Assembly (NCBI GenBank): GCA_976551045.1
Contig: CDPCPM010000026.1
Span: forward strand, 10,540,001-10,604,000
From: Glaucostegus cemiculus
Taxonomy: Eukaryota
DNA length: 64,000 bases
Direction: 5' to 3'
The translations under genes and the position numbers were made by a program. The notes under the pieces are model-generated. The model searched no databases. It had not been told where the DNA came from and saw only the letters and a program-made list of their open reading frames with translations. Shown piece by piece: positions 1,190-63,285 of this stretch. Every line of letters starts with the position of its first letter. Positions within the stretch are counted from its first letter, which is position 1.

Positions 1190-1340
1190 GGAGACACAAC
1201 AGACTGTAGATGCAGGAATCTGGAGCAACAAACGAGGCTGGAGGAACTCAAGAGGTCAGGCACATCTGTGGAGAAAAATGGACAGTTGACATCCATTTCC
1301 CTCCAGAGATGCTGCCTGGCCTGCTGAGTTCCTCCAGCAT
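1190..1340. mobile_element. Short fold-back element derived from a Penelope-like element terminus (family A)
   Basis: Arms GCTGGAGGAACTCA..GGTCAGGCA..CATCTGTGGAG..AAATGGA (1237-1283) and TCCATTTCCCTCCAGAGATGCTGCCTGGCCTGCTGAGTTCCTCCAGC (1292-1338) are inverted complements. The same sequence ends the PLE at 33400-33470. Confidence 0.8.
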
Positions 1341-4300
1341 GTAAAACGTACATAGATATTTTATTTGGTGTAACAGCCACCATGTGTAATAATTTTACTA
1401 ATGTAAAATTATAAATGTTGACAAAACTGAAATCTCAATCAGGATTTTTAATCTTTAATATTTTAAAATATATTGTTGTTAATAAAACTAACAAAGGGCT
1501 AACACAACAGGAACCACAACTTTCAGAAAAACCATATATCACTGGCTCCCAGTTGAAGTTGCTGTGCCATTTACCTATGAATAGCAGTGGGCTCTACTGG
1601 CTTCGTCATCATTTTTACTGCCTCTTTAGCAAGCATTGTAATTGTGAATGTGTATATGTAACAGGGTCCTCCAAATTGCTTCATCTTGCTGAAAGGACTC
1701 AGTTTGTTCAATAAAGATGAAGTTAGCATCAAGTTCATTTTGTTCTGTCTACATACTCAATGTTGGGCCCCACGGTGTGGGGGAAAAACACATATCTGTG
1801 AGCCACATGCATGCTCTGGATTAGCATTTGTTGAAAATAATTTGTTTCGAGTTCTAATAATTCTTAAAGGTGCTATTTACAAAAATGTCATTTTTAAATC
1901 ACGTTATTTTATATGTTTTGATTTTGAACAATAATTGTTAAGAAAATGAGCAAATGAGTTTAATTAAGATTGTGCATTATTATAGATTCTGAGAATAAAA
2001 AAATAAAAATCATAAATATTCTGAAGTCAAAAGCAGTGGTCAGTAAGAGATGCGGATCTTTTTTTTATTGTATAAGTGAAGTTCCAAATGTACCATTGTG
2101 AGACCATCTCCTTCGAAGTTGGATTAATAGAAAAGGAAGTAATTCAGATTTAAAAATGCAAGCAGTTGGTAAATATCAGCAAACCTGCCTCGTTTGTTGA
2201 ATTATAATCTTTTTCCAGTATTTATTTCCTTATTTGCAAAATATTAATCTGTCTAAGATATTGCTTTTGCATTGCTATTGTTTTGTAAAACTGAGAGCCC
2301 CAAACTCATCTGCTACTTCACAGTACTGGTGGTTTAAAATAAAATGCTACTGCTTGCTGGCTGCCCGTAATGAGAGTGTAATAAACTTTCATGAGAATTA
2401 AACAATATCTAATCAAGTCCTGAAAGGGATTGTATATTTCTATAAAAGACTTGGACAGTTATCTTGCAGAAATGCTGCAAAAGATTAAATTTGGTATTCA
2501 CTTGTCAGGAGTGCATTTCCCTTCCAATATCCTCTACTAATTTCCTCATTTCCCATTAAGGATTGAATTCTTTACTGTACAAATTCCTTCGACAACAGGT
2601 GGCTGCTAACATCTCACTCAAATCACCATTGTTCATGCTTGACACTTGACAGAAAAGTATTTTTACTCTGAACCTGTTTCATTGTCCTTCCTTTTGTGTT
2701 TTGCAAAAGCTTAACTGGATATCAATCAAGAGGAATGCTCTGGCTGATAAAGTCCGTCAAAGCACTTCCACTGTCATTTGGGCTAAGAGTGTACTGAGCA
2801 CTGATATAAGATCAGACTTGAAGCTTCTCTCTCCACAATTCATCTCTGAAATAGCATTATTTTGTCATTGATAACCTCTTGCTAACCTGTTCTACACCTA
2901 ATTTGTCCAGTGTTGATAAGGTAACTGCAAATAATGACATTTATTTTCAAATATTTGTCATTTTTCTTGATGACATCTGTTTAGTTATAAATATATAACA
3001 TAGTATGAACATGTATCTTCTGATTCAGTTGCGAAAAATCAGTTTCAGTCTTGTAATCATATTTGATGGCTAGCAAAGGAACTACTTGCATTTTTTGTAT
3101 TTTTTTATTTTTGTCAATGTTACAGTATTATAACAGTTTATAATTTTCTTGGTACCTTTTGTGTTAAGTTGTGATCTCAGTTTCAAGATTTTTCCTTATA
3201 AATGGTGATAAGAGTTTTGAAGTTTCTGACAGCATTCTTATATGTGGCTGTGATTACACTTGTTTAATTTACAGTCTAATATATTGTATTTATATGTGTA
3301 CAAGAACATTGACACAACACCTTTTCTGTAACACTAGTTTGAGCTGTGACAGTGGCTGTCAAGGTGTGATGTTTCTAGTTGTCATTAGCACTGGACTGAC
3401 AGCATGCCTCAATCAATTCACAGCCTTAAAACATCTGTTAGCTCATGCATCAGAGAAAACACTTCATACTAACGCTTAGTTCATTTACTGTGCGTTGAAG
3501 CTTACAATACTGTATCATTTTTGTCACATAATTAACCTTGAAAATTTTTGTGTTATAATTATGATTTACATACATGAAGATTAATTCTGACTTCAAACAT
3601 TATGGTCATGATTGCATTCAGTCAGTTGTGCGACAAATGTTTATCTAAACAGAACTGACTGAGATAGTGGTATTTTGCTTTGCTGTCATACTGTACGTGT
3701 TGGAGTTTGGGCTGAAAATTAAATATTTGTTCATGTTATTTGCAGTTCTCTTTACACAAAGCATGAAAATAATGGTATGTACAATATTGTGTACATTTTA
3801 TATTTTGTATTTTCCGATATTAATTAATTTACACTAACATGTTTGTCACATTTAATCCTTACACCTGGTTTTCTAAGATTGTGTTTAGAATTAGAGTACA
3901 ATGCTGTTGACATCCGTTTAGTTTTTCCTTGGCTTCAAATGCCATTTTGTGAGCTTAATTTTATGCAGCAAGAAAGGCACCATTTAATAAAAGTGCAGAT
4001 AGAGATATAATCAGCAGATCAATTAAATAGTTTGAAGAGCTTCTGAAGTATTTCTGAAAAATAATAATATCGGAATATAATTTGTACAAAGAATATTGTG
4101 AAGTTGAAAGAATGTCGTTGTATATTTCTCTAATTTTAGATTGTAATATGTTTCATTGGAAGGACTAAAGATGTGAACAAATAAATGTTTATTTTTTGAT
4201 GTAACTGTCAAACATAGCAGCTTGCTGAAAAAAAATTGTCCTATTATGATTGTTTGCATAGTCATAAGGTGCAATAAATGAGTTAATTGAATGTAAAAGT

Positions 4301-6012
4301 GTTAAGAATTATCCGTAACATATAGATGTTAATGTACCTATTTCAAGCTGGTGAATTTTGTTTTTGCGTTCAGCTCCACTTAGAATATATTTGGTATTTT
4401 GTTTCCTGTGTAAAAACAGTGCTGGAATTTAGTGCTTACATTCCAGTTTGCGCAGCAATAGCTAACATAGTCTCACATTAGTCTGCCAAACTAGCAGCAC
4501 AGGGGAGAACTTCCTGTGCAGATGATGTGAAAGTGTTTCTGTGATTTCTTCCTCTGTAGCTTTGGGAGATAAAAAGACAAGCCTTTGGGGATTACTCAGG
4601 GGGACTATATTGTATTTATAAAATTGAACTAAGGTATGCAAGTGTATTTGTATTTTGTTGCACTCTGGAGAGTTGTACATGTAGAGAAACATGAATTAGC
4701 ATTTTCCATTTCCATACACTGCATTTAGTGGAGGGACTGCTATTAAGCTTCGAGTTTTCTTTACATTACATTTTAATGGTGCACAAAACAGATGAAGTTC
4801 ATGCCATTTCTTGAGAGCCGCCTTTGCCACCAATTTTATTATAGCAATTTCTTTTAAAAGCATACCACTTCACATTTCACTTTGCCAATGTTATGTGCTC
4901 TAGTGTTCCCATACAGATATAACAAAAGGTTATATTCTTATTCATAATTATGACTGAAAAATCTGTTTGTCATTTATGGGACAAATTTATGACTTGTTAA
5001 TTGCTGTCTAATATTATTGATCCTCTAATAATACATTTGTCTGTTCAACAATGGTTAGGAATAATTTTGACTTGATAATATTAACTTCTACTCTGCTTTA
5101 CATATTGGTACAAAAGTAGAAATTTAGCTTTTCAATCTTGCACCTTTCCATCAGAAAGAAACTCAGTTATATTGGGGGCAAATTTCAGAAGCACATGAGT
5201 GTAAATCTAGTGCTGCAGATATGAGCATTCAATTGTTCAACAATTCTTTTCACTTAAATCAATTGATGAGATTATTGGGTGTTTTTAGCTGACCCAAGAT
5301 AGTGATTTTAAATTCTGGCATAAGATGTATTGATAATTACTCCACTATTAATAAGAAACTCACTCAATAACATTTTCATAACATGCAAAACATGCAATTT
5401 ATTCTTGCTTAACTTCTGCCATTGACATTTGAGGTGGATCTGCACTCAGAGAAACCAATAAAACAAACTGTATTTCTTATTTTATCAGATGTTCATTTAT
5501 TTCAACAATAAAATGTCTAAAGATTTCTGGGAAATAGATAAGATCAATACAGTAATTTGTAGTACAAAATTAAAACTAGATGCAGAAAATTTGATTAATG
5601 CGGTTTATTTAAAATGTGATTGTCAGGGAGAGAATGAGCTATCATGTTTACAAAATTGGCTTATGTAATAACATATTTTAAATGTAGTCTTATAATACAG
5701 AGCTTATATAGCATGAAGAGATGTGGGTTGACAAGTCATGAAGATTTTCTTTGCTGTTCATTGAAGTACAAAACCTCCCATGGCACAGAGGTAATGCAGC
5801 TCTTTGCTAGCAGCAAGAAAGTCCACTTATAAGCTGGACCAAAGCACAGCCGTCCCTGCAACAAACATGGTTAAAATGTCTACAGCACATGTGACGGTTG
5901 GAACAGGTGTTAAATGACCTCTTGAAAGAAATGATGAAATGCCATACACCACTGCCTTCAAAGCCTACAATAGCACCCTCAACACCTTTATTCTCTTTTT
6001 CTTTGAATGCAG

Positions 6013-9444: not shown

Positions 9445-10915
9445 CATAAAAATATAGGAATAATTTCAGAAGCAGGAATCCCTGATGCGAACTCCAAATT
9501 CAATAAGATTATAGCCAATGCTGTACCTCAGGTCCACTTTTCCACCTAGTTCCATTTGCATCCATTTCCTTAGTGTGTAAAATCTGTTGTTCTCAGCCTT
9601 AAATATCCTTGCAAATATTGGGGTGGAAAATTCCTTGGGATTACAGTTTTCTGAGTAAAGGCATTTCCATTTGTCTCAATCCTGCATGGCCGATCTCTTA
9701 AAATGATACCATGTTCTCTCATTACGGTTGTCCAGCCAGAAGAAATTGTTCCTTAATATCTATCTTGTCAATCCTTCTTAGAATTTTGTTTCAATGTGAT
9801 TGCCTCTCTTCCTTCTAACTCAATAAAATCTCATTGCAGGAACCTGAGGCAGTATTGATGTACAGGGGGACCTTGGGGTGCAGGTCCATAGCTCCCTGAA
9901 AGTGGCAACACAAATAGAAAGGGTGGTAAAGAAAGCATACGGTATACTTGCCTTCATCAGTCTCAGGGTATTGAGTACAAAAGTCAGGAAATCATGTTGC
10001 AACAGTAAAAAACTTTGATTAGGCTATATTTGGAATATTGTGTGAAGTTCTGCTTGTCACATTACAGGAAGGATGTGGAGGTTTTGGAGAAGGTGCAGAA
10101 GAGGTTCACTGGGATGTTGGTGTGGATTAGAGAGCATTAGCTATAAAGAGAGATTGGACAAACTTAGATTGTTTTCTGTGGAGTGTTGGACTCTGTAAGG
10201 GGCAACCTGATAGAAGTATATAAAATTAAGGGAGGTATAAGGGTACCCTCTCTTTCCCAGGGTGGAAATATCAAATACTAGAGGAAGTAGAGTTGAGAAA
10301 GGGAAAGTTTAAAGGAGATGTCCAGGGCAAATTCTTTTTTTTTTTACAAAGATAGTGCTGGATGAGTGGAGTGCACCACTGGGGGAGGTGGTGGAAGCAG
10401 ATACATTAGTGACATTTAAGGGGCATTTAGACAGTCACATGAAGCGGCAGGGATTGAAGGGATTAGTTTAATTTGGCATCATGGTTGGCACAGACAAGGA
10501 CCTATTCCTTTGCTGAACTGTTCTGTAGAATGCTATCTCCTTATGTTCCATATGTCCTCATGTTCCCACAGAACAATACCCTGTTCTCAGGAATTAATCC
10601 AATAATTCTATTCTGTGTCATCAAGACAAAATTATCCTTCCTTTTTTATGGAGACCAAAATCCAGGTGTAGTCTTATTAAGCAATACACAATTACAACAA
10701 GATTTTTACTTAGATGCTTGTGGTGAAGGGCAAAATATCATTCACCTATTAAACTGCTTGCTGTAGCTCAGTGTTAATTTACTGTATTTCTTGAAACAGC
10801 ACATTAAAGTTCAGCATTAGTTACTCAACATTTAAAACAAAAACTGTTTTTGTTTTCTTACCAAAATTCAATACCTAACATATAACATTATACTCCAGCT
10901 ACCACCTTATTGCCT
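9445..10915 (-). mobile_element. Old CR1 LINE (about 9445-9825 and 10530-10915) interrupted by a younger CR1
   Basis: Antisense CR1 sequence breaks at CCTTCTAACTCAA (~9823) and resumes collinearly at ~10530 (ATCTCCTT...CAGGAATTAATCC...GGAGACCAAAA). Confidence 0.65.
9833..10525 (+). mobile_element. CR1 LINE 3' fragment nested in an older CR1
   Basis: Reads SIDVQGDLGVQVHSSLKVATQIERVVKKAYGILAFISLRVLS..., YRKDVEVLEKVQKRFT, then a CR1 3' UTR. Clearly homologous to the 46.7 kb ORF. Confidence 0.92.
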
Positions 10916-11419: not shown

Positions 11420-11895
11420 CAGTGGTGAATTGTAGATTCACTTGATTGATTCAGAGGATTGCAAGATTATCTGATGAGGAAAGACATAGTAAGATTTGCT
11501 TATATCATTAGGCTTCAGAAAAATGATCTCTTTTGAAACATAAGAGATTCAGAGAATGATTGATAGGCTACATGCATAATCTGCTGTTTCCTCTGGCTGG
11601 AGAGTCTCAGGGTTAGGACATTGAATGGCAGTAAGTATTTTAGCTATTTAGGACTGAGATGTGAAGAAATTCATTTACTCAATGGCATGCAATTCTTTGG
11701 ATTTCTCTAATCAAGGAGGGTAGTGGGTGCTCAGTCACTGAGTATGTTCAAGGCTGACATTGATATATTTGAGGGTGCCATGGGAATTGAGAGGATGTGG
11801 ATGTGAGCTAAAGGAACTGCCGTAAACTTACTGAATGGCAGCACAAGTTTGAGGAGCACAGATGGCTTTTCCTAACCTCTTAATTCTTGTGTTTT
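11420..11895 (+). mobile_element. Old CR1 LINE 3' fragment
   Basis: TTTAGGACTGAGATGTGAAGAAATTCATTTACTCAA (FRTEM-RN-FTQ motif) and GCTCAGTCACTGAGTATGTTCAAGGCTGACATTGAT, typical of the CR1 3' end. Confidence 0.75.
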
Positions 11896-13657: not shown

Positions 13658-13689
13658 AAGAGAGCTGCATTGTTTTCACTTAATAAGCA

Positions 13690-14872: not shown

Positions 14873-14875
14873 TCA

Positions 14876-15945
14876 AAGTCATAGACTCGTGCAGCACAGA
14901 AGCAGGCCCCACAGCCCACCATGTCCATGAGGATCGCAGAATGCTATCCGTACTAATCCCATTTACCAGCACCAGCTTTCTATGCATTCAAGTGCTCATC
15001 AAGGTACTTATTAAATGTTGCAGGAGTACCTACCTCCACCACCTAGTCAGGCAGTGCATTCCAGATTCCAACTACCCTCTGGTTGGAAATGTTCTTCCTC
15101 AGATCCCCTCCAAGCATCTTACACCTCATCCTAAACCTATGCCCTCTAGTCGTCTTCTATTGAGAAAAATTTCCTACTGTTAACTCCACTGATGCCCCTC
15201 ATAATATTGTGTACCTCTATCAAGTCTCAGCTTGCCTTCCTCTGCTCCAGGGTAAACAAACACTGCCTATCCAGTCTCTCTTCATAACTGAAGCACTCCA
15301 TTCCAGGCAATATCACGAGATTGTTTCCAGGGCTGGAAGGAGAGATTGGGCACACTAGGTCTTTATTCATTGGAGTGTATGATACTGAGGGGTGACCTTA
15401 TAGAGGTGTATAAAATCATGAGGAGCGTTAAGAGGATGAATGCATATAGTCTTTTTTTTGGGGAAAGGGAAATCATAAACTATAGGGCACAGGTTTACAT
15501 GAGAGGGGAAAGATTTAAAAGGAATCCAAGGGATAACTCCCATGGTGTGTGTATTGAATAAGCTGCCAGAGGAAGTGGTCAAGGCAGGTACAATAACAAC
15601 ATTTAAAAGGCACTTGCGCAGGTAGGTGGATAGGAAGGGTTTAGAGGGATATGGGCCAAATGCGGGCAAATGGGACTAGCTTAGGTCTTGGTTGGCATGG
15701 GCAAGTTGGGCCAAAAGACCCGTTTCCATGCTGTATTCTATGACTTTAATATCCTGGTGAATCCTATGATGTTGCCACCAGAAATGTGTAACACAGCTCG
15801 AGCCTAACCAATATTGTATAAAGTTGCATATAACTTCCCTGCTTTCATGTTCTATGCTCCAGTTAATGAAGGCAAGTATTTGATATGCCTCCTTTGCCAC
15901 CTTATCTGCTGTGCTACCACCCTCAAGGATTCTTGGACTTGTACC
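14876..15945 (-). mobile_element. CR1 LINE 3' part (14876-15314 and 15748-15945) interrupted by an antisense CR1
   Basis: Tail GTCATAGACTCGTGCAGCACAGAAGCAGGCCC; sequence continues across the insertion as TCCAGGCAATATC|CTGGTGAATC. ORF track 15676-15900 gives AKEAYQILAFINWSIEHESREV. Confidence 0.88.
15315..15747 (+). mobile_element. CR1 3' fragment flanked by a probable 6-bp target-site duplication (AATATC)
   Basis: ORF track LGLYSLECMILRGDLIEVYKIMRS, CR1 3' tail, and AATATC at both 15309-15314 and 15748-15753. Confidence 0.9.
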
Positions 15946-16184: not shown

Positions 16185-16520
16185 GAGGTCATATGTTACC
16201 CTGGATAAGACTGTCAATGTTGTAAGGCTGATCCTTTGGCTGGAAGCCTTAAGCTAGGGAGCACAGTCTCACTGTAAATGGTTAGCCACTTAGGATTAAG
16301 GTGAGGAGAATTTTTTAAATCAGATATCTTAAATCTCATGGATAGTGGTATGTGGATGCTCAGTCACTGAGTGGATTCAAGGCTGAGATTGATAGTTTAT
16401 GGATATTAATGGGAATCAAGTGGAAAAGTGGACACGTGTTAGAGAATCATCTATGATCTCATTACATGGTGTAAGCTCAAGTCACCTTGTGACCTACATC
16501 TAGACCTGTTTCTTATATTC
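16185..16520 (+). mobile_element. Old CR1 3' fragment
   Basis: TTAGGATTAAGGTGAGGAGAATTTTTT...GCTCAGTCACTGAGTGGATTCAAGGCTGAGATTGATAG, near-identical motif to 11730-11765. Confidence 0.75.
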
Positions 16521-16729: not shown

Positions 16730-17345
16730 CTCCATTGTCCACAAGGCACAAGCCAAAAGTGTGATGAAATACTCTCCACTTGCCTGGATGAGTGCACGTT
16801 CCTAACACTTAAAAACCCATGACATTTAACACCATCCAGGTTAAAACAGTCAGTTTGATTGGTTCTCAGTCCACTGCCTGGAACATTCAGTCACATTGGC
16901 ACCATTTTTCTGTGGCTGTGACATGTACATTACAGTTACTCATTGGTTTTCCTTTGGTGGTATCTCCCAAATTCATGACTTCTACCACCCAAAAAGAGCC
17001 AGGTAGCAGAAGTTTGGGAACACCATTGCCTCCAAGTTCCCCTCCTGGATACACACCATTCTAGCATGGAAAAATATTGCCATCACTTCACTGTTGTTGG
17101 GTATAAAGTCTGGAACTTCCTATTCAACAGTATTGTGCGAATAAAAATAGAAACTGTTGGAGAAGCATGTTGGACTGCACCTGAGGAGAGAGAACCAGAG
17201 GTGATGCTTCAGAGCATCTGCAGATTTTTGCTACTTGGACATGTGGGACCACTTTTTCCAGAAAGATTGCTGGTTCAAGAAGATGGTTACCACCGCCTTC
17301 TTGAAGACAGTTAATATGAGGGAAGAAATGTTTACCTGGCCTTAT
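16730..17345 (+). mobile_element. Non-LTR retrotransposon 3' fragment (CR1/L2-clade, distinct family) with a small PLE-terminus-like insert at about 17140-17240
   Basis: Reads IVHKAQAKSVMKYSPLAWMSA...NTIQVKTVSLIG, resembling the RT thumb motif YKAQVRSVMEYSPLAW...LDTIQ-KA-RLIG. Confidence 0.7.
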
Positions 17346-28680: not shown

Positions 28681-29669
28681 AATCTACAGTGCACAAGAAA
28701 TGCATTCTATTGAGACAAAAAAAGAATGGAGATTGAAACAGAAGAACAAATAGCTAGGAATTTATAATCTTACACACATACAAGGGTAAACTCTCTAGGA
28801 AAATATATGTAATATTTGTTGCATTTTAAATGTGTAATATTATACATAGTGGATGCAACCTGGCTGGCTTTGTTAATGTACATTTAGGGGAATGGAAATT
28901 GTGCAACCATCAGACAATTCGTCAAAGTCTGGAAAATCCAGGAGGAGAAAATTCTCCAGCTCAATCCATGAAATGCATTAGCTATACTTCTTATGCCTGC
29001 ATTGAGTTCACTGAAAAATGCACAGAAAAATAATCCACTGTTGGAATCTGAATATTTGTGGATCAAGTGAGAAATACCATCTTCTTGAAGAGTTATTTTT
29101 AGTGAATATTTCCAATCCGAGAAATATTAAGAAAATAGCTGGCTGCAGAGTATATATTGTTGCAAAATGAAACGGACCTACATTTATGTAGTTTAGGGAG
29201 GTGGTTTGCAAACTGTTAATTTTGTAAGCTAGATAGCAAAACTTTAAAATTTTTAATTTTCACTTTTTAATTGTTTTTTTTAGTTTTGAAATGTTTTTGA
29301 ACTTTATGTCAGAAACTATCAAAAACATACATGGTGTTTTGTCAGCTTAAACACTAGCGAGTAAAGGTGCGCCTTAACCAGCTGTCAGGCTTTTCTGATT
29401 TTCTTTGGATGGGTTTTGGGGGTTGGCTTTGTCCACGTGCCAGTATTTACACTTGGAAGACCTCACCACCCTGCAGAACCTCACTGTTGAGGACGGAGCC
29501 AGGTTTATGAGGTGTTGTCCTCAAGAGAGCTGCATGAGGGAAGAATGAACTTTTTGCATAGGTCAATATGGAGTGTAAATTTACTTTTCTTGAGCCATAT
29601 TGTGGCTCTAATTGTCCATTCCAGACCAACAGTTTTGCAAAGATAATTCAACATCTGTAAGTAAGGAAT

Positions 29670-30415
29670 GTAAAATAAAAGTAGGAAATGCTGGAAACAA
29701 TCAGCAGCTCAGGCAGCATTTGTTCAGAGAGAGAGAGAGTGTCCTGGACATGTTGAATTTATTGTTGAGTCCTGAGGGCTGAAACATGTAGTCAGAAGGT
29801 GCAATGCATTGGGTTTTGTTTGTTTAAGAGGCTAAAGGTGGAGAGGTCAGAGTGGGAGCAGGATGGAGAATTAAAATGACAGGCAAATGGAAGTTCAGGG
29901 TTACCCTTGCAGACTGAACAGAGGTGTTCTGAAAAGCAGCAACCCAGTCTGTGCTTGGTGCAGAGGAGACCATATCATGTGCACCGAATGCACAGCACTA
30001 AATTATAAGAGATGCAAGTGAACTGCTGTTTCACCTGGAATGAGTGTTTGGGTACCTGGGTAGTGGGAGAGGGAAAAGGTGAAAGGGCAGTAAAACTGGC
30101 TTTGAGGAAAGGAATAAGTGTCAGTGAAGGTGGATTATTGAACCAGAACAGCATAAAGGGAGTGGTTCCTATCGAATGTTAAAGGTAGAGGGGTGATCTA
30201 GTAGTGGGATCATTTTGAAGCTGGTAGAAATTGAGAGCTTGGCAGATTAGAGCCCTGTGGACTTAACATTGAATTCAACAATTTCAGAAAGCCAAACTTT
30301 CATATCAGCACAGGCTAGTTCATCTGAAGTACCAATACCACTCATGCTGCTTGACCTGCTGAGTGTTAAGAGTATTCTCTGTATTTATTTCAGATTTCTA
30401 GCAATTGCAGTTTAA
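29670..30415 (-). mobile_element. Penelope-like element relic (GIY-YIG endonuclease region) with termini in opposite orientations
   Basis: Minus strand ~30058-29825 reads QVPKHSFQVKQQFTCISYNLVLCIRCT*YGLLCTKHRLGCCFSEHLCSVCKGNPELPFACHFNSPSCSHSDL (PLE GIY-YIG, IGE apparently deleted). Antisense terminus at 29670-29730; sense PCGLNIEFNNF plus terminus at 30250-30415. Confidence 0.85.
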
Positions 30416-30569
30416 CTTCTCCACTGCACATATTACTGTTTCAGCATTGGTTTCTTTTCTCTATCTTCCTCTGTTTTCATTTGTTGAATTCTATTTACAC
30501 CTTCTCCAGGCTGATCCGCTGTGATTAACAAATCGTCACCATACTCTCTCAATGCACACCACTACCGAT

Positions 30570-30813
30570 TGTGTCATTCAGTCTCTCTTGGTCTCCACTG
30601 AATCACAGACATTCCCTTTGTTCTCAACATCCCTTCTGCTTCGTTGCAACTTACAACATGTTTGATTTCTGAGTTTTCTCAGTTTTGATGAAAGGTGGTG
30701 ACCTGAAATGTAACTGTTTTCTTTCCCTGCATATGCTACATGACCTGCTGAGTATTTTGAACATTTCCTGTTTCTGTTTCTGATTTCCAACATCTGCAGC
30801 TTTCCTGCTTTTG
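30570..30813 (+). mobile_element. PLE 3' UTR/terminal repeat (family B) with degenerate hammerhead motif at 30681-30715
   Basis: AGTT-TTGATGA-A-AGGT-GGTG-ACCT-GAAA-TGT-AACT followed by the conserved terminus TGACCTGCTGAGTATTT...TTCCAACATCTGCAG. Collinear with 48760-49030. Confidence 0.8.
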
Positions 30814-31289
30814 CATAAGAAATTTGTCTGTGCACATTAGGATGAATTTCTTTGGATTTCTTGGCAGGGGTTCCAATATTCAGAAATCATAGATTTAACA
30901 TGCCAGCGCGGTAAACCTAACTAACCTGCCCTTAGATAATCAATTAGAACATCTGATGCAGACAATGATCTTTGAAAAAAGTTAAACTTAGTCAAGGACC
31001 ACCTGATTTGCATTAAAGCATTATTTCATCGAAGATGTTGGATTAGTGCCCTTTATCAGTTTCCACAATCTAAAACTCAAAGATGCAAATATGTTAATAA
31101 TAGTGATATGAGGCAAGAAGAACGCCATCATACTGAGATATTCTGTAGGCCACAACTAATGAGGGAAACCGAGGAATAAACCTACATTGAAAATACTAGA
31201 TATGCAAACCTGTATGTCGATTGGTAATACTGGGGAACTTCAGTTACCATAGTAATTATTGAGATAATAGTAGAGCAAAGGGCTAAGAA

Positions 31290-31440
31290 GATCAGGCAGC
31301 ACCTGCAGAGAAAGAAGCAGCTAATATTTCAGTTCACTGATCTGAAGTGTTCTGATCATTGGCTTGAAATATTAACTCTATTTTTTCTTCCACAAAAGCT
31401 GCCTGACCTGCTGAATATTTCAAGTATTTTCCTTTTTATG
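31290..31440. mobile_element. Fold-back element from PLE termini (family B, old)
   Basis: TCAGGCAGC...CTAATATTTCAG on the left and TTGAAATATTAA...GCTGCCTGACCTGCTGAATATTT on the right are inverted complements. Confidence 0.7.
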
Positions 31441-32800: not shown

Positions 32801-32954
32801 TTCCCCTCTGATAATTTAGTTGTTAATGAACGCAACTGCATTCGTGAGAAAAAGAGCACTGGTAGTCAGTGACAGCTTTTCTACCATTTCTCTGATGTTA
32901 GGATAACAATCCAAGCAATCTGTGGACTGTTGTAAAATGAGTACTAAGGATGTG

Positions 32955-33470
32955 TACAACCTGATGGTGTGAACATTGAATTCTCCAATTTCAGGTAAAC
33001 TACTCCTTCTCTATCCCTTTTCTCTCTCCTCCTGATCTACCCAGTTCCTCCTACGCCCAGCCCAGCCCCCCAATACCCTTTTTTCTTTGCTTCCCCCCAC
33101 CCATTCCACCTGCCCATCACCTACACTGGGTCCCCTCCCCCCCCCCCCCCCCCCCCCCCCGTTCCCATCTCTTACGGACCAAATTCCATCATCTTCAGCC
33201 CTTTGTTGCCTCCACCTTTCGCCTCCTTAGCCTCTATCACTATTTCCTCTCTTTTCCTCCTCCATCTGCCTAACACCATTCCTCACTTGCATCCACCTGT
33301 GTCTTGCCAGCTCTTGCTCCACCCCTTCCCTTTGCATCTTTATACTGTTTACCTCCCCTCGATCTTTCAGTCCAGATTCAGGGTCTCCACCCAGAACATT
33401 GACTGTCCATTTCTCTCCACAGATGCTGCCTGGCCCGCTGAGTTCCTCCAGCATCTTGTTTGTGCTACAG
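32955..33470 (+). mobile_element. PLE 3' end (family A): ORF terminus, pyrimidine-rich UTR with C24 run, degenerate hammerhead (33368-33405) and terminal repeat
   Basis: CAACCTGATGGTGTGAACATTGAATTCTCCAATTTCAGGTAA reads QPDGVNIEFSNFR*. Motif CAGTC-CAGATTC-A-GGGT-CTCC-ACCC-AGAA-CATT-GACTG precedes the terminus shared with the fold-back elements. Poly-C at 33137-33160. Confidence 0.88.
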
Positions 33471-33591
33471 AGGTGGCAACCTGCTCCTCCATTCCTTTAC
33501 ATCTGAAAGCTGAATATTTGCCAAGGATGTGAAATTTAATGGCCATAAAATCTTTGCAAACTAAGTCAAAATACACTGTTGGCAAACAAGT

Positions 33592-33895: not shown

Positions 33896-34883
33896 AAAAT
33901 GGCAAGTTGGATTTATTGCAAGTGGTCAGGAATAAATTACAAGTGACCAACTTAAAATTTCTGTTCTTTGAAATAAAATAACATTTTATTTAAGGACCCC
34001 AACTTGCCTTTATTTATAAACCATTGTTATTTGAAACTTCTCAATGAGGGAGGTTGCAAAATCTGAGAGCTGCAGCATCTGTAAAAGCATTTAAACATTT
34101 TATTCTTCTTGAAGCTTCTTGGTATTTACCAGGACCCGTAGAGCATGCAGCCACAAATGCTGGATATTGACAAAAAAGAGGTAGTAGTTGGAGGAAAAAA
34201 GCTGCGACCCTAGTGCAGCAGTTAAATGTTCATTAATGTCCTTGCTTCTTTGTGTTTTTCACTGATTGTAGATCTGGTATTGGTGTTCTGTGGAAAGGGA
34301 ATTTGCTGCCTATTTTTGTTGTTTAACTGAATCATCTTGATGCCCTTGTAAACTCTCCATGAAGCTTGTGTGCATTGCACTCTGGATTTATTGATTACCA
34401 ATTTATCTTTATACACTGTGATATTAATCAATATAATTTAAATTGTTGAACTTGCATCACAGAGCAATGCTACATGGATTAGTTCAAAGATATATTGCAT
34501 TAAATGTTACATTGGGTCAAATCATGATGGTTTTGTCTTGCACTTACCTGGGACAGCTGAGTAGGTCCAAAGGACATGACCCTCTGCATCCGGAAGGCAT
34601 CAGCAAGGTGTAGCCAGTCTAGGATGGTGTACTTCTGAGGCCTTGCCCCTCAATCATCCTGCCAGGAGGCAAGGCAGGAGGTGGAGTTTTGTTTCCAGTC
34701 GACCTGTCACAGATTTTAATGTCTGACTATAAAGGTTACTTTAAATCATTAAACAAAAACAAATAAAGTAAAATAAAGAAAATAAAGTTACTGAACCTAT
34801 ATACTTCTCCCACATTCTGCAGGGCTGAGAATCACCATTCAAATCGATGAGTTGTTAGCCCTTCACCAAGAAGGCTTAAGATT

Positions 34884-35077
34884 GCACAACAAACAAAATG
34901 TTGGAGGAACTCAGTGGGTCAAGCAGCATCCGTGAAGGGAAATGGACAGTCAAAGTTTCAGGTCTCAGTCCAAATCATTGACTGCCCATTGCTGTCTACA
35001 GATGCTGCCTGACCCACTGAATTTCTGTAGCATTTTATTCGTTGCTCCAGACTCCAGTATCTGCAGTCTCTTGAATC
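34884..35077. mobile_element. Fold-back element from PLE termini (family A)
   Basis: Left arm CAAAATGTTGGAGGAACTCAGTGGGTCAAGCAGCATC..AATGGACAGTCAA pairs with TTGACTGCCCATT..GATGCTGCCTGACCCACTGAATTTCTGTAGCATTTT; extra 3' tail ACTCCAGTATCTGCAGTCTCTTG. Confidence 0.85.
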
Positions 35078-37184
35078 AGTTAGGATTGCACAGGCAGATT
35101 CTCCAGTGTAATCAGTTTTTGCCACTGGACTTCGGATAGAGTCCAGCGATGGAGCAGAGTGACAGCTGTGCTGGCGTCTGTCACTCAGTTTGTCTTGGAC
35201 CTTCAGTGGGTTTGAATATGCCCAGGACTTACCTGGGAGTGACTGAAAGCTGGCAGTTCCCTTCAGTACTGCCAGCCAGGGCTAGCTCTTTTCAACCCAC
35301 TGGGTTTTCTTTCCCTCCTTTAGTTATGTAATTTTTCTTTTAATCTGTATTGTTGCTTTGTCCTAAACAAGTTTCATGTAGAAATGAAGTTCAATTTCAC
35401 CATTCAAAAAAAACATTTTCCTAAACTGCAGATTTGATCTGTGTGAATTATCTTACCTCCCTCCACAAAAACATTAATTTGGGAGCACTAACTTTGTTTA
35501 AGAGCTGTTCTTTTTGATAGTGCACAATTTCCCTTTTCACCTTCAATGCACTCTAGTGAGCTGAAATGACCTTGCACCTCATTGTTCTGCACACCGCGCC
35601 ATTCATCAAACAGTAATGGTTTGGTCACATTACAAAGACTCAATGTGTTCATAGGTTAACTTGAAGGTTTGAAGAGTGATGGGGAACAAACCTTTCCAGA
35701 AAGAATTCAGATCAAAGATTATCTGATATGCTGGAGTGTTTATAAGAAGATGCACATATGTCATTGAAGTGGTACAAATTAATTGGTTGTCCTGAAACTT
35801 TGGCTTATGCTTTGAAAGTTCCTATTTAAGATTCTGCCCCTAATTTTAAAATTTTGAAGTATTTATTGCAAAATGTAAATTATTTTTTTGCAATATACTG
35901 TTTTCTAAAAAACCTTTTCATAAAGCAGACTGTTACATGTAAGGAAAACTTGTATTGTTTCATTTAATACTATTTTCATTGTTAGCTTAACTCCCTCAGC
36001 TCTGAAATAAGAAAGATGAAAGTGATGTCAAATACACTTCTGCTAAAGTGCAAAATGGATGGCACAAAATTGGCAGTGCATTTTATAAAACCTCAATTTC
36101 TTTTTCCACTGAAAGTGGTGTAAAACAGGCTGTCATTTCGCCAGAACACATTACACTCTTTTGCTAGATGCCAATATTACCACCTCAAGTTCAACAACAT
36201 AAAATTAGGTTTAAGGTTCAGTAACTGTCTCACAATATTTTATAATAGAAAAATCATAATAAGAATTGATTCAAAGCTATATGTCACATGTTATACCATG
36301 GTTCAGCTCATGAAACCTTAGGATTAAAATACTGCATGTATTTTATTTGGATTGTCTAGGTTATATGCAATAATGATCAACAGGAACAATACAGTATGAC
36401 TTCCACAAGTCACTATAACCTATTATGTCACACAGTCCATGTTTCACAATTAAATAATACCGTTTCCCCAACGGTGCCTTCTTACCGGCTGCCACATTAA
36501 GACATCCTTGCTCCTTCCCCTATATTTATGTAATTAACAGCATTGAAGTGCCATTGAATCTTTAATAAATAATTATTTAATATAATTTCCCTATCTCTAT
36601 ATGCATATTATAGTGTAGGAGTATTTGAAAATACCTAAAAATTATTTGTAAATCAGTTCAATAGAGAGAAATGTACATAGAAAAATGATTGCACTGGGCC
36701 TCTTTAAAACTGGTTTAGCAGCATATTTTTCAAATAATATATTAATTTGCTACATGTATGTATTTGATTATTACAATGTACTTCATTTTTTGTATTATTG
36801 GAAGTTTATTCTGTTAGCATCAGTGTCATTGAGAATATTTTCAGTGTGTGTGAGTTAACAGATTTGTCTCAGTAAAAGTCTGAATAGTAGATTATACCAT
36901 GTGTCTTAATTATTCTTAGTAAACGGGTTGTTAATATCTCAGAACAATAAAAGCTACACTGAGGGATGTTTTATTACCTCAGTGCTATATTTGAGTTTCT
37001 TAAAAATATTAAGGTTTTTTACCCCAACTGTCTCAGTGTCTCAGCTGTGAGAACAGGGCTGAAATACTGCCGCCAGTCAAGGTTGACATGCCAAATGGCC
37101 CACTATAAAATCACCAGGGAGACTTATCAGAGCAGCTTAATTGTAACTTTCTTTTTCTGACTTCTATTTCTGCAGGTGGAGGGA

Positions 37185-46561: not shown

Positions 46562-47727
46562 AGAACATAGAACATAGAACAATACAGCACAGAACAGGCC
46601 CTTCGGCCCATCAAGCTGTGCCCTCCTACAAACATCTCCCAAACTAACTCTTTCCACCCTCATATCCTACTATTCCACATTCTTCCATGTGCTTATCTAA
46701 CAATCCCTTAAACCTGTCCAATGTATCTGCCTCCACTACCACCCCAGGTAGTGCGTTCCATGCACCAACCACTCTCTGGGTGAAAAACTTCATCTCCCCT
46801 ATACTTTCCACCTATTATCTTAAAGGCATGCCCTCTCGTCTTGAGCATCTGCGCTCTGGGAAAGAGGCGCTGACTATTAACTCTATCTATTCCTCTCAAT
46901 ATCTTAAACACCTCTATCAAGTCCCCTCTCATCCTCCTCCTCTCTAATGAGTAGAGCCCTACCACCTTAAGCCTCTCTTTATATTCCATACCCTCCAATC
47001 CAGGCATCATCCTGGTAAAACGTCTCTGCACCCTCTCCAACGCCTCCACATCCTTCCTATAATGCGGCGACCAAAACTGAACACAATATTCCAAGTGCGG
47101 CCTAACTAGAGTTTTGTAAAGCAGCATCATCACCTCTCTGCTCTTGAACTCAATCCCTTTATTTATAAAAGCCAACATCCCATAAGCCTTCTTAACAGCC
47201 CTATCCACCTGCGAGGCAACTTTGAGTGAACTGTGGATATGAACCCCCAGATCCCTCTGCTCCTCTACACTGCCAAGAACCTTACCATTTACCTTATACT
47301 CTGTCCTGGAGTTTGTCCTCCCAAAGTGCACCACCTCACACTTCTCTGGATTAAACTCCATCTGCCACCTGTCAGCCCATTTCTGCATCCTATCAATATC
47401 CCCCTGTAAGCTCCTACAGTCCTCCACACTATCTACCACACCACCGATCTTGGTGTCATCTGCAAACTTACCAACCCATCCCTCCACTCCTTCATCCAAA
47501 TCATCTATGAATATAACAAAGAGTAGAGGCCCCAGAACCGATCCCTGCGGGACTCCACTAGTCACAGCCCTCCAATCCGAGGGCACTCCCTCCACCATAA
47601 CCCTCTGCCTTCTACAGGAAAGCCAATTTCCTATCCACACAGCCAACCTCCCCTGGATACCTCGACCTCTGACCTTCTGAAGAAGCCTGCCATGAGGAAC
47701 CTTATCGAACGCCTTACTAAAATCCAT
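46562..47727 (-). mobile_element. Young 5'-truncated CR1 (HER1-like) LINE, about 1.17 kb
   Basis: (AGAACAT)n tail at 46562-46580, 3' UTR, long RT ORF, retained CpGs, and candidate TSD ATAATA at 46557-46562 and 47726-47731. Confidence 0.97.
46708..47727 (-). pseudogene. CR1 ORF2 reverse transcriptase C-terminal half (339 aa, truncated, frameshifted near the end)
   Basis: Motifs DFSKAFDKVPH, GVPQGSVLGPLLF, FADD, LYKTLVRPHLEYCVQFWSP. After GKYRGD (~46790) the homologous FFTQRVVGAWNALP continues in another frame. Confidence 0.95.
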
Positions 47728-47950
47728 AATAAATTACTTTTCTCACAGACATTTAAAATAGTTTTAGCAGTGGCTTGCTTTTCATGCCACAATATTAGGG
47801 ACTGAAATAATGATCAATATTTATCTTAACTGTTAGAAATTTCCAACAGAAATCTTTTGAGGATTTCCACAGCCTCCATGATGGTTCTGTTGCACACTTT
47901 GTAAACAGGCCTTATACAATTACTTTAATTACTTGAAAGGTAACTAGAGT

Positions 47951-48024
47951 TATGGATTGCAGAAGAATCCTAAGCTGTATTGACATCAGTTGTAATACAG
48001 TTTAGGATACTTCTACAATCCATA
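47951..48024. repeat. Isolated 74-nt near-perfect inverted repeat
   Basis: TATGGATTGCAGAAGAATCCTAAGCTGTATT versus AATACAGTTTAGGATACTTCTACAATCCATA: 28 of 31 positions complementary around a 12-nt spacer. Confidence 0.9.
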
Positions 48025-48451: not shown

Positions 48452-49030
48452 GAGGAGATCAAATGCAGAATGGGTGACAGCTTTGCATAACACCTCTGTT
48501 CAATCTTCTAGCATGACCACAAGCTTCCCGTTGCCTGTCACTTTAATTCTGTCTCACTTAAACTCCCATCTTTCTGTCCTTGGCCTCCTACAGTGTTTCA
48601 ACAAAAGCTTGAGGAACAACACCTCATTTTCAGATGAGGTACTTAATGTTCAGTTCAGCAGTTTCAGATGGTCTGCTTTCCAATACTTTTATTCCAGATT
48701 TACAATACCCTTTGTAAATTCCTTCAGTAATTTCTGTTAATGGCTATGCATTTTTGTTACATTGTACCATCATCCTTTTTGGTTGTTCAATCTGTTTTGC
48801 ATTCCACCCTATCAAGGACTTAGCATTTTGTTCTCTCCTTTACATCCCCACCTCTTCCCCTACCCCTTTCTCTGCAATTTACAAGTATTTATCTCTAACT
48901 TAATCCCAGGTTTGATGAAAAGTCATTGACCTGAAATGTTAACTCTGTTTCTCTCTCCGCAGATGTTGTCTGCTAATTTCCAGCAGTTTCTGTTTTTATT
49001 TCAGTTTTCCAACATCCTCGACTCTTTTCA
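48452..49030 (+). mobile_element. PLE relic (family B): GIY-YIG C-terminal region, 3' UTR, degenerate hammerhead (48908-48944) and terminus
   Basis: EIKCRMGDSFA*HLCSIF*HDHKLPVACHFNS...LSVLGLLQC...KLEEQHLIFR; motif AGGT-TTGATGA-A-AAGT-CATTG-ACCT-GAAA-TGTT-AACT. Confidence 0.85.
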
Positions 49031-50009: not shown

Positions 50010-50356
50010 AAAGCTTTGGCAAAGCCACTTGTACATACATTGTGATTATATGTTGGATTTCACAGTAAGATAGCAGTTTACTTACTGGGAATAATAGCTG
50101 TATGCTGTTCATTTAGGGATCTTTCACAGTAGTCTGAATTTACTCATTTTTGATTAGTTCTGGAATATTGTATGCAACCTCTTTTTATCCATTTATCAGA
50201 GGGGCAACCTTCATTTTGCACCTGCAATGTCCTGTCTATAGGCCAAGGAGCAGCATGATGACTGTTTATCTCCAGTCTTTGGAAGACTCCAAATATTACT
50301 CTTATTCCAGACACAACCCCTACAAAATTATGAGAGAGAGGAAGTTTTTAATTATT

Positions 50357-51050
50357 TAATTGGAGTTTAATTTGGACAAGTGTGAGGTGTTGCATTTTGG
50401 GAGGTCAAATGCAAGAGGAAAGTATACAGTAAATAGCAGGAGCCTTAAGAGCAGTGATGTACAAAGGGACCTTGGGGTGCAAGTGCACTGCTCCCTGAAA
50501 GTGGCAACATAAGTAGATAAATTGGGAAAGAAGACAAATACCATGCTTACCTTCATTGGTCAGGGTATTGAGTATAAAAGTTGGGAGATCATGTAACAAT
50601 TGTATAAAAATTTGATTTGGCCACATTGTGTAGTTCTGGAAGGATGTGGAGGCTTTGGAGAGGATTCACCAGATTGTTGCTTGGATTGGTATGTATTAGC
50701 AATAAGGAGAGGTTGGACAAACTTGGAATGTTTTCTCCAGAGTGTTGGAGGCTGAGAGACATATAAAATTATGAGAGGCATAGATAGGATGGGTAGAGGA
50801 CATAGGTTTAAGATGAGAGGGGTAAAGCTTAAAGGAGATTTGCAAGGTAAGGTTTTTTTTTACACAGTGGTAGGTGCCTGGGCAGGTGGTAGAGCAGATA
50901 TGATAGCGATGTTTAAGAGGCATTTAGACAGAAAAATGAACCAGCAGGGAAGAGAGGCATATGGACCATGGGTTGGGCAGATGGAATGAGTTTAATTCAG
51001 CATTGTGGTTGGCACAGACATGGTGGGCTGAAGGTCATGCTCCTGTCCTG
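50357..51050 (+). mobile_element. CR1 3' fragment
   Basis: Reads LEFNLDKCEVLHFGRSNARGKYTVNSRSLKSSDVQRDLGVQVHCSLKVAT, homologous to the 46.7 kb ORF, followed by 3' UTR. Confidence 0.92.
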
Positions 51051-51064
51051 TGATGTGTCCTATA

Positions 51065-51200
51065 CAGGCATAGACTTGTACAGCATGAAAGCAGGTGCTT
51101 TGACCCAACTTTGCAAACCAAGTTGCCTAGCTGAGCTGGTCCCATTTCCCTGCATTTGGCCCATTTCCCTCTCTTCCTATCCATATACCTGTCTAAATGT
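51065..51200 (-). mobile_element. CR1 3' tip, tail-to-tail with the previous copy
   Basis: CATAGACTTGTACAGCATGAAAGCAGG...CCCATTTCCCTGCATTTGGCCCAT is the reverse complement of the tail type at 15640-15747. Confidence 0.85.
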
Positions 51201-55221: not shown

Positions 55222-55410
55222 TCCAGCAAAAAAAAAGCAAGCTGCTGGCAGAACTCATTGGGTCAGGCAGCATCTGTGGAGGGAAATGGACAGTCATCAT
55301 TTCAGGTTGTGACCCTTCATCAGCCCAGATGCTGCCTAACCCACTGAGTTCCTCCAGCAGCTCTTTTTTTTTGCTCCAGATTCCGGCATTTGCAGTCTCT
55401 TGTGTCTCCA
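55222..55410. mobile_element. Fold-back element from PLE termini (family A) retaining a hammerhead core on - strand at 55291-55323
   Basis: Inverted arms CTGCTGGCAGAACTCATTGGGTCAGGCAGCATCTG / CAGATGCTGCCTAACCCACTGAGTTCCTCCAGCAG. Minus strand of the spacer reads CTGATGA-A-GGGT-CACA-ACCT-GAAA-TGAT-GACTG. Confidence 0.88.
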
Positions 55411-60673: not shown

Positions 60674-61081
60674 TCTTGATCACATTAAGTTGGCTAAGCA
60701 GCTAATCACCTTGAATTCTCACAGATGCATTGTGCAGTATGCAGGATAAAGACGGGAACACGTATAGAATCTGAAATGTATAAATAATCTTTCTGAACAA
60801 TAAAAACTTAGTAATATGAATTCTGTTGTTATTTTGAAATGTTTACATTGGGGAATGAAAATCCACACACATATATTAGATTTTTTGTGGCCAAAGAGGT
60901 TGGGAAGCAATAATAAGGGCTTAGTACGCCACAGAAAATTCACTTCCACCTCATGCTTAATATTTTTTAAAGAATTTTACAGCAAAAATTAGCTTGTGAA
61001 TACCTCAAAAGTTTCCACAATATAATGACCTTTCTTCATTACAATAGAGAAGGTTGCAAAACTCTGGAAGAGTGTTGAATC

Positions 61082-61218
61082 ACTGACAGCAGCTTTGGGA
61101 TTTCTGTGTTAAACTACGCATGTGCAAGAAATCCCAAAGTTTCTGTCAGTTTCACAGCATAATGACAGTGAATGCTAATAGTTTTGCTGTCATTACAACT
61201 GCAAAATGTGGGCCATAT
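61082..61218. repeat. Double-hairpin element, probably an ancient palindromic dispersed repeat
   Basis: 61082-61105 versus 61127-61150 are complementary at 22 of 24 positions; second stem TAATGACAG (61160-61168) / CTGTCATTA (61187-61195). Confidence 0.75.
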
Positions 61219-62313: not shown

Positions 62314-62376
62314 GCGAGAATGGACAAAGGGGCTGAGGACCCTTGCGAAGTAGAGAACGTAGAAATAGCAGAGCAG
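62314..62376 (+). other. Candidate 63-nt exon (ARMDKGAEDPCEVENVEIAEQ)
   Basis: GCAG| acceptor, CAG|GTAGCC donor, purine-rich with 3 CpGs, length divisible by 3, only one frame open. Splice signals are moderate and the protein is not recognised. Confidence 0.3.
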
Positions 62377-62565
62377 GTAGCCTTTCTTCTTAGCTTTGAT
62401 TTTAGATGTGACGTTATGGTGGGTGGGTTGGTTCGAAAACTTGGTTGCAGAGGCACTTGGTGTTGATTTTTTAACATCAGCACATTTGTTGTATGGAAAG
62501 TAATCATCGAACTTTCATTGACCGATGTAAGCTGGAAGGAATTCCATAAGTGATCATATATATTG

Positions 62566-63285
62566 TGTCAGCTGTGGCTCAGTTGGTAGCACTGTTGCCA
62601 TTAGTCCATTCTATCCACCACCCACACCCCCCTCCCTGCCACAAAAGCACAAAAAAGAACAACTACTGGATGAACTCAGCAGGTCAGGCAGCATCTGTGG
62701 AGGGAAATGGACACCCTGAGTTCCTCCAGCAATGTGTTTTTGCTCCAGATTCCAATATCTGCATTCTCTTGTGTCTCCTCTCTCAGAGATTGAGCACAAA
62801 AAAATAGACAGTGGAACTTGAACCAGTGACAGGATCCAGGGAGTACCTACTTTTGGATGCAGTTTTAAATGAAGACCCTGTCTTCTTTCTTGGGTGGATG
62901 CAAAAGGACTTTTGAAGAGCAGGGGAGTCATCCCCAGTATCCCACCAATATTTATGTCATGACTAACATCACTGAAGCAGATTACCACATAACTTTTTAT
63001 GGAATCTTAATGTGGACTAATTTACAAGTACTTAGATATATGCTTTAAGAGAATCTGCAGATCTGTGGACCATGTCCAGGAAAATGGCATTAGCCTAGAT
63101 TTCTCTTTTTTTGTCTGGCACAGACATGAAGGGACAAATGCCTCTTTTGCGTCATACGTTTTCTATGATCGCTGCACTTCTTACAACCGTGCCTACACTA
63201 CGTTAGTAATTCATTATCTCTGATTGCCTTAGATTGTCCTGAAGTAGCTGTGGAAGCTATTATATAAATACAATTCTGTCTTTTT
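62566..63285 (+). mobile_element. DeuSINE (SacSINE1-like) carrying two nested insertions
   Basis: tRNA-like head GTCAGCTGTGGCTCAGTTGGTAGCAC, Deu domain CTTTTGGATG..GGTGGATGCAAAAG..GAAGAGCAGGGGAGT..CCAATATTTAT..AACATCACT, and tail TATATAAATACAA. A CR1 3' tip lies at about 63035-63170. Confidence 0.85.
62645..62778. mobile_element. Fold-back element from PLE termini (family A) nested in the DeuSINE
   Basis: CTGGATGAACTCAGCAGGTCAGGCAGCATCTGTGGAGGGAAATGGACA joined to CTGAGTTCCTCCAGC..TTGCTCCAGATTCCAATATCTGCATTCTCTTGTGTCTCC. Confidence 0.85.

What the first reader, a model, noticed from the sequence alone, without database searches (positions are those of the whole stretch)
1190..62778. Family of about 150-200 bp fold-back elements made only of Penelope termini, with axes in or beside the hammerhead ribozyme
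Seen: five elements (1190-1340, 31290-31440, 34884-35077, 55222-55410, 62645-62778) consist of two inverted copies of the terminus that ends the longer PLE relics here. They have no coding sequence and one arm is longer than the other. The junction differs in each copy but always lies in or just beside the hammerhead motif. Established: PLEs carry minimal hammerheads in their pseudo-LTRs and often show an inverted 5' terminus. Inference: each copy arose independently from a very short ribozyme-delimited RNA, or they form a non-autonomous retrozyme/MITE-like family mobilised by PLE RT. Five copies in 64 kb would imply a very high genome copy number.
Basis: partly seen in the sequence, partly recalled or inferred. 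Interest (0 to 1): 0.7.

Follow-up and report, generated by a model that had tools for sequence, protein, structure and literature searches.

The report
Penelope fold-back stubs mark RNA start
These hairpins are real, separately made stubs of a known kind of jumping gene (Penelope-like) in a shark- or ray-like genome, and across the genome their copying stops most often about 32 bases upstream of the ribozyme's cut site, likely at the capped start of the RNA, so the ribozyme cut probably does not set their ends.

Summary
All five fold-backs are real. Each is two head-to-head copies of a Penelope-like (PLE) pseudo-LTR end; in four, one arm carries the known ~34-nt tail. This layout is published. 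They are not a MITE or retrozyme family: 31 of 31 sampled junctions differ, and 0 of 27 closest relatives share the 55222 junction. Estimated ~100,000 short fold-backs genome-wide. In a 1.4-Mb unbiased sample, arm 5' ends pile up at the 5' edge of the hammerhead (0.079 per nt) and not at its cut site (0.005; background 0.003), replicated in a second set. Genome-wide, ~32% of subfamily-A1 copies begin there versus 2-3% at the cut, with excess G just before the start (90 G, 48 A, 31 T; p~1e-11) and a TATA-like island ~30 nt upstream. Best reading: reverse transcription started ~100-132 nt from a capped RNA end and ran off it; two such cDNAs were joined. Against: the pile-up is weak in the subfamily with the best TATA (3 of 28), and bulk RNA-seq shows no start there. 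This scan noted such stubs before in this genome, without this 5'-end result.

The parts
1190..1291 (-). Element 1, tailed arm (model +29..+132), subfamily A1
   Evidence: 87 of 96 aligned bases match the subfamily profile consensus
1292..1340 (+). Element 1, short arm (+38..+86); junction within 5 nt of the HHR cut site
1175..1189 (.). Left copy of likely TSD of element 1 (right copy 1340-1354)
   Evidence: called 11 bp with 1 mismatch; 12 of 15 by eye
31286..31343 (-). Element 2 (older subfamily B), minus arm +13..+72
31349..31437 (+). Element 2, plus arm +2..+97; starts at the 5' pile-up site; no tail, no TSD called
34887..34960 (-). Element 3, minus arm +24..+97
34961..35073 (+). Element 3, tailed plus arm +14..+126; junction lies in HHR stem II
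34876..34888 (.). Left copy of 13-bp TSD of element 3 (right copy 35080-35092, 1 mismatch)
55232..55323 (-). Element 4, minus arm +5..+96 with intact CTGATGA...GAAA core, lacking the 5' strand of stem I
55326..55410 (+). Element 4, tailed plus arm +52..+132
62650..62713 (-). Element 5, minus arm +36..+97
62716..62778 (+). Element 5, tailed plus arm +70..+132
32948..33471 (+). Longer solo PLE relic of subfamily A1 (-454..+104): pyrimidine-rich 3' UTR, TATA-like island, HHR, terminus
48455..49016 (+). Longer PLE relic: broken GIY-YIG C-terminal region, 3' UTR and subfamily-B terminus
29667..30413 (.).

Best explanation
Each fold-back is a separate, non-coding insertion of two head-to-head Penelope-like pseudo-LTR ends, likely made when the element's reverse transcriptase primed from both nicked target strands, started about 100 or 132 nt from the likely capped 5' end of the RNA, and ran to or near that end before the two cDNAs were joined. 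Shown: two 3' end points (+96-102 and +130-134), a TSD around the whole unit, a different junction in every copy, a pile-up of 5' ends at -2..+3 with a shoulder to +30, no comparable peak at the HHR cut, and excess G just before +1. Inferred: that +1 is a Pol II start (TATA-like island at -28 to -31, initiator-like TCAGT), that the G copies the cap, two-strand priming, and that the stubs cannot be copied again because they lack the upstream promoter and the RNA beyond the tail that a related protein needs in vitro.
For: Hazard of a 5' end among 144 arms of the younger subfamilies in 1.4 Mb: -2..+3 0.079 per nt (25 events), +4..+10 0.025, +11..+30 0.011, cut +31..+35 0.005 (3 events), -100..-13 0.003; peak p=5e-18, cut p=0.64. 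Replication in 77 arms from flanks of other loci: 0.103 versus 0.007. Simulation with 276 uniformly truncated real copies: 9 true and 9 called in the peak, median error 0. Sequence upstream of 17 solo copies starting at -3..+6 is 46% C+T versus 77-87% in the element. Genome-wide, 443 of 5,037 exact +1..+18 matches have two purines at -3/-2, about 32% after dividing by P(RR)=0.271; 2 of 60 inspected were longer copies with a deletion. At the cut: 41 of 8,442, about 3%, of which 9 of 30 inspected were deletions or stem-I switches; a +29 control gave 40, about 1.5%. Base at -1: G 90, A 48, T 31 (A/T split counted by hand) versus 48/67/53 expected, p=9e-12; p=5e-7 after removing 18 G for short duplications. 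TSDs: fold-backs 11 of 30, solos 5 of 121, p=8e-6. Literature: the anole PLE protein nicks and extends both strands, starts at two internal sites that define the tail, and does not need HHR cleavage (PMC11167929); full-length L1 insertions carry an extra G from the cap and 5'-inverted ones keep clean TSDs (PMC11702581).
Against: The pile-up varies by subfamily: A1 17 of 37 arms that reach +3, D 11 of 19, E 2 of 5, B 31 of 93, A2 6 of 21, and C, which has the best TATA box, only 3 of 28 (0 of 21 in the random set). More copies start at C(-1) (274) than at A(+1), and about 750 start at +3, so the wall is several bases wide. The site is also a pyrimidine tract plus CAG, like a splice acceptor; in D. 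virilis the start lies upstream of an intron that ends at helix I (PMC2377424, PMC4209133). RNA-seq runs X11-X13 (not shown to be this species) show family RNA but no pile-up of read ends at +1. No 5' pLTR-ORF junction was found among 341 tail ends or 3 extra stretches, so the cap-proximal geometry is by analogy. The genome-wide cut-site test covers only A1, whose consensus core has U4A. In the unbiased sets only 5 of 10 exact +1 starts have G. Junction microhomology is not enriched (4 of 28 with 3 nt or more, p=0.12).
Confidence: 0.6

Rival explanations
1. Same independent PLE insertions, but the 5' wall is a roadblock or trimmed end and not a cap: reverse transcriptase stalls at factors bound to a retained 3' splice site (pyrimidine tract + CAG), or a 5' exonuclease trims the RNA to the protein-bound hammerhead.
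For: Pyrimidine tract plus CAG at this spot in all six subfamilies; the D. virilis intron ends at helix I (PMC4209133); the wall is several bases wide with a shoulder; weak wall in TATA-rich subfamily C.
Against: A stall does not predict excess G at -1. TSDs abut -1/+1 with no shared upstream exon in the inspected loci. Starts at -1/+1 (about 1,630) exceed starts at +3 (about 750), the reverse of a cut at the acceptor.
Confidence: 0.2
2. Short fold-backs are remnants of longer inverted PLE insertions whose unstable centres were deleted later.
For: Long head-to-head copies exist (6 of 31 sampled pairs reach beyond -100; window 29667-30413). The nearer arm's end is widely spread.
Against: Solo copies show the same wall (14 of 82 at -3..+3). 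No farther arm ends between -100 and -4 (0 of 31). 89 of 117 junctions carry inserted bases and microhomology is not enriched.
Confidence: 0.1
3. One reading: the template RNA is cut by the hammerhead, so arms end at the cut site.
For: Element 1 folds within 5 nt of the cut. Starts at +33 may be up to about twice the +29 control. Intact-core subfamilies C and A2 have 3 of 68 ends at the cut versus 1 of 100 (not significant).
Against: No peak at +31..+35 in two samples. Most short arms keep sequence 5' of the cut. HHR mutants insert normally in vitro (PMC11167929).
Confidence: 0.06
4. The fold-backs are a self-propagating non-autonomous family (MITE- or retrozyme-like) mobilised by the PLE enzyme.
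For: Very high copy number and TSDs around whole units.
Against: 31 of 31 junction pairs differ. 0 of 27 resolved top relatives of element 4 share its junction and the tail side varies. No tandem units.
Confidence: 0.03

Closest known systems
EN+ Penelope-like element insertions with inverted 5'-truncated pLTR and 30-40 bp tail (PMC3846280, PMC8557442 Fig. 2 legend; passages read)
   Same: Head-to-head inverted pLTRs, tail on one end, TSD of about 8-15 bp around the unit, heavy 5' truncation.
   Different: Here the whole unit is often only 100-250 bp with no ORF, at about 1e5 copies, and 5' ends pile up at one site; the passages read do not report such a pile-up.
PAc, Poseidon element of Anolis carolinensis (PMC11167929; main text and start of methods read)
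   Same: HHR about 100 nt before two RT start sites that define the tail; both strands nicked and extended; HHR cut not needed.
   Different: That work is in vitro and reports no fold-back junction map or 5'-end distribution. Clade identity with PAc was not tested by phylogeny.
Minimal type I hammerheads of metazoan PLE pLTRs (PMC4209133; results and discussion read)
   Same: Short helix I, extra base before helix II, palindromic 15.2-16.2; pairs on opposite strands 100-700 bp apart were noted in Schistosoma.
   Different: Subfamily consensus cores here include U4A (A1) and a C at position 9 (D, E); the proposed cleavage role leaves no clear mark on insertion ends.
LINE-1 full-length insertions with extra G and twin-primed 5' inversions (PMC11702581; passages read)
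   Same: Extra G at the template's 5' end; inverted insertions keep clean TSDs.
   Different: L1 inverted segments are adjacent and barely overlap; here both arms copy the same terminus. L1 inversions show microhomology, which was not enriched here.
Non-LTR retrozymes (bioRxiv 10.64898/2026.07.22.740005; abstract, introduction and start of methods read)
   Same: Non-coding, PLE pLTR-derived, HHR-bearing.
   Different: Retrozymes are head-to-tail tandem units each with an HHR; these are head-to-head, mostly with partial HHRs, and show no master lineages.

Membership tests
EN+ Penelope-like elements | Parent ORF with RT followed by GIY-YIG endonuclease | tested here: met
   525-aa frame upstream of the same terminus in L143: weak RVT_1 (E=0.011, below cut-off), GIY-YIG motif visible; 78 homologs, full-length ones with RVT_1 and GIY-YIG.
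EN+ Penelope-like elements | Minimal type I HHR in the pLTR | tested here: met
   Core and stems I/II in all subfamily profiles. Rfam gave no hammerhead hit in the window. Activity untested.
EN+ Penelope-like elements | 30-40 nt tail on one end | tested here: met
   3' ends bimodal at +96-102 and +130-134; exactly one tailed arm in 26 of 31 sampled pairs.
EN+ Penelope-like elements | Inverted 5'-truncated copy head-to-head, unit flanked by a TSD | tested here: met
   TSDs of 10-15 bp on 11 of 30 versus 0 of 90 controls.
EN+ Penelope-like elements | Partial tandem with pLTR directly upstream of the ORF | tested here: inconclusive
   No shared ORF continuation after 341 tail ends or in 3 extra stretches; no full-length copy was held.
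Penelope/Poseidon clade | Placement in RT phylogeny | not tested
   No tree built; assignment rests on HHR/tail geometry resembling PAc.
Non-LTR retrozymes | Head-to-tail tandem units each with a complete HHR | tested here: not met
   Arms are head-to-head; 1 of 5 window elements keeps the core motif.
Non-LTR retrozymes | Ends set by HHR cleavage | tested here: not met
Non-LTR retrozymes | Abundant circular RNA | not testable with these tools
   Bulk RNA-seq of uncertain species only.
MITE-like non-autonomous family | Copies share one internal structure descended from master copies | tested here: not met
   31 of 31 distinct junction pairs; 0 of 27 top relatives share the junction.
MITE-like non-autonomous family | Fixed short TSD | tested here: not met
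   TSDs vary from 10 to 17 bp.

The most novel reading that the evidence does not exclude
The genome holds a fossil map of the Penelope cycle: hundreds of thousands of stubs record reverse transcription begun about 100-132 nt from the cap of a pLTR-started RNA and run off the cap, with fold-backs made by two-strand priming; and an intact hammerhead suppresses these cap-ended stubs by clipping the first 32 nt, which would give the ribozyme a function. Subfamilies with altered cores (A1, D, E) stop at the wall in 30 of 61 arms versus 9 of 49 for intact-core C and A2 (p=0.001), but this is only five lineages and intact-core B (31 of 93) is intermediate.
Probability: 0.2. Interest if true: 0.7.

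Novelty: new member of a known kind. Interest (0 to 1): 0.42.

Why it matters
The role of the PLE hammerhead and the origin of inverted pLTRs are open questions (PMC8557442, PMC11167929). The very large number of stubs gives a genome-scale readout that agrees with the in vitro result that cleavage is not needed, points to a specific RNA 5' end, and yields direct tests in the existing anole system. The elements themselves are dead debris with a published layout; the value is in the end distribution.

Tried and rejected
Rfam: no hammerhead family hit; weak miRNA-hairpin hits are chance. HHR stems as general microhomology for the junction: not enriched, although single cases exist. Tail preferentially on the shorter-reaching arm: 28:10 raw fell to 15:7, p=0.13, after a detectability control. 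Splice-acceptor cut at +3 as sole cause: fewer starts at +3 than at -1/+1. The look-up of sequencing runs: no RNA holder listed. Search for a full-length 5' pLTR-ORF junction failed. Orthologous test not possible: contigs of run X9 cover both flanks of element 4 into the arms but none spans the junction. Filters before counts: solos kept if score 40 or more, reaching +80 and 40 nt or more from an edge (176 of 586 raw calls); pairs kept if both arms scored 28 or more and together 80 or more (59 of 70); hazard statistics use the younger subfamilies only (82 solos, 31 pairs) because the B profile is poor upstream. Literature: searches found no paper reporting a pile-up of PLE 5' ends at the HHR edge; the library lacks most subscription journals and Repbase/Dfam entries. 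The three supplement files of PMC11167929 held as text had no hits; its supplementary figures and bioRxiv supplements were not seen and may bear on this.
Full report
Observation. The five elements exist at the stated places. The window lies in a 2.85-Gb genome. Protein relatives of the parent ORF come from sharks and rays, so the host is likely an elasmobranch. I number positions from the A of the CAGTC motif that opens hammerhead stem I (+1); the cut falls between +32 and +33. A profile aligner split each element into two head-to-head arms: +29|+38, +13|+2, +24|+14, +5|+52 and +36|+70. Four of five carry the tail on one arm. A 200-kb reversed decoy gave no pairs. For elements of this size a breakpoint inside the hammerhead is nearly forced by geometry, so a genome-wide test was needed.

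Parent element. Longer copies continue upstream through a pyrimidine-rich 3' UTR into a GIY-YIG region and an RT. Full-length homologs carry RVT_1 and GIY-YIG. Six subfamily profiles were built (A1, A2, C, D, E and older B). All have a minimal type I hammerhead like those in PMC4209133 (results and discussion read). The A1 consensus core has U4A, and D and E have C at position 9; reduced activity is inferred from general knowledge, not tested. 3' ends are bimodal at +96-102 and +130-134, which is the PLE tail. Inverted 5'-truncated copies, a one-sided tail and TSDs are described in PMC3846280 and PMC8557442 (passages read). No full-length copy with a 5' pLTR-ORF junction was found.

Abundance and independence. 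In 140 stretches of 10 kb taken at fixed positions on large contigs there were 176 solo ends and 59 fold-backs after filtering. 52 fold-backs were under 300 bp, or 37 per Mb, about 1e5 genome-wide if the sample is typical. The window has about twice that density. All 31 junction pairs of the younger subfamilies differ. Among the 29 best BLAST relatives of element 4, 27 were resolved and none shares its junction. TSDs of 10-15 bp flank 11 of 30 fold-backs against 0 of 90 shuffled controls and 5 of 121 solos. So fold-backs insert as units but do not propagate as a family.

Where the 5' ends fall. Among 144 arms the chance of ending per base was 0.079 at -2..+3, 0.025 at +4..+10, 0.011 at +11..+30, 0.005 at the cut and 0.003 elsewhere. 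A second set of 77 arms gave 0.103 versus 0.007. Uniformly truncated real copies did not create the peak, and flanks of copies starting there are not element-like. In fold-backs the farther arm ended at -3..+10 in 17 of 31 and never between -100 and -4. Exact-pattern counts for A1 over the whole genome agree: 443 of 5,037 copies have foreign sequence at -3/-2, about 32% after correction. At the cut the count is 41 of 8,442, about 3%, with 9 of 30 inspected being deletions or stem-I switches. A +29 control gave 40, about 1.5%, so a small excess at the cut is not excluded. Starts at +3 were 333, about 750 after correction (my arithmetic from base frequencies).

What the wall is. A1, C and D have a TATA-like island 28-31 nt upstream, A2 and B an A/T-rich island at a similar place, and the site reads like an initiator (motif labels from recalled knowledge). 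Among copies with foreign sequence at -3/-2, the base at -1 is C in 274, G in 90, A in 48 and T in 31 (A/T counted by hand). G is about twice expectation (p=9e-12). 5-6 of 30 inspected G cases are short duplications of +5..+13; removing 18 leaves p=5e-7. Full-length L1 insertions show such a G from the cap (PMC11702581, passages read). The anole PLE protein nicks and extends both strands, starts at two internal sites about 110 nt past the hammerhead's ATG, needs RNA to +172 of the ORF, and ignores hammerhead mutations (PMC11167929, main text read). I therefore infer cap-proximal initiation, run-off at the cap and joining of two cDNAs.

Evidence against. The wall is weak in subfamily C, which has the best TATA (3 of 28 arms; A1 17 of 37, D 11 of 19, E 2 of 5, A2 6 of 21, B 31 of 93). 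The site also looks like a splice acceptor, and the D. virilis start lies 46 nt before a 75-nt intron (PMC2377424, passages read) that ends at helix I. Three RNA-seq runs of a species not shown to be this one hold abundant family RNA but no pile-up of read ends; fragmented bulk libraries and old copies make this a weak test. Microhomology is not enriched. The genome-wide cut-site count covers only A1.

Side result. Subfamilies with altered cores stop at the wall more often than intact-core C and A2 (30 of 61 versus 9 of 49, p=0.001). This could mean an active ribozyme removes the capped end, but it rests on five lineages.

Earlier notes of this scan filed similar stubs in this genome as ordinary PLE debris; I agree on identity. 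A word search for the transcription-start idea found nothing.

Verdict. Real, PLE-derived, independent insertions with a published layout: new member of a known kind. The 5'-end wall with a G excess was not found in the papers searched and is testable. Interest 0.42.

Noticed in passing
window 46708-47733 (-): 341-aa open frame of a CR1-like LINE RT C-terminal region (label recalled); a copy in the random sample is 97% identical over 751 bp, so this family is young. Related older fragments at 9833-10453, 15300-15800 and 50300-51200.
   Followed up: partly
window 47951-48024: Isolated hairpin, 31-nt arms 90% complementary with a 12-nt loop, unrelated to the PLE terminus; no match in the 1.4-Mb sample. 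Unexplained.
   Followed up: partly
window 29667-30803: Longer head-to-head subfamily-B structure with a GIY-YIG fragment, followed by a second direct terminus at 30579-30803.
   Followed up: partly
window 17140-17229: Possible sixth, weak fold-back (61 and 23 bits), below my threshold.
   Followed up: no
window 11719-11765 and 16347-16394: 47-bp direct repeat, 87% identical, absent from the random sample.
   Followed up: no
L230, L238, L248, L249, L252 around 1500: A short copy of +5..+13 sits directly before +1, as if RT jumped back after reaching the template end.
   Followed up: partly
genome-wide pattern: Many starts at +3 are preceded by GA or CA; some look like perfect fold-backs or switches between CAGATG motifs. 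Loci not inspected.
   Followed up: no
L212:6990-7180: In runs X11-X13, first mates on the minus strand outnumber plus about 2-4 fold over the subfamily-C 3' UTR, suggesting sense transcription if the libraries are stranded.
   Followed up: no
L064:1048-1520: Fold-back followed by a near-identical second copy of one arm, a local duplication.
   Followed up: no
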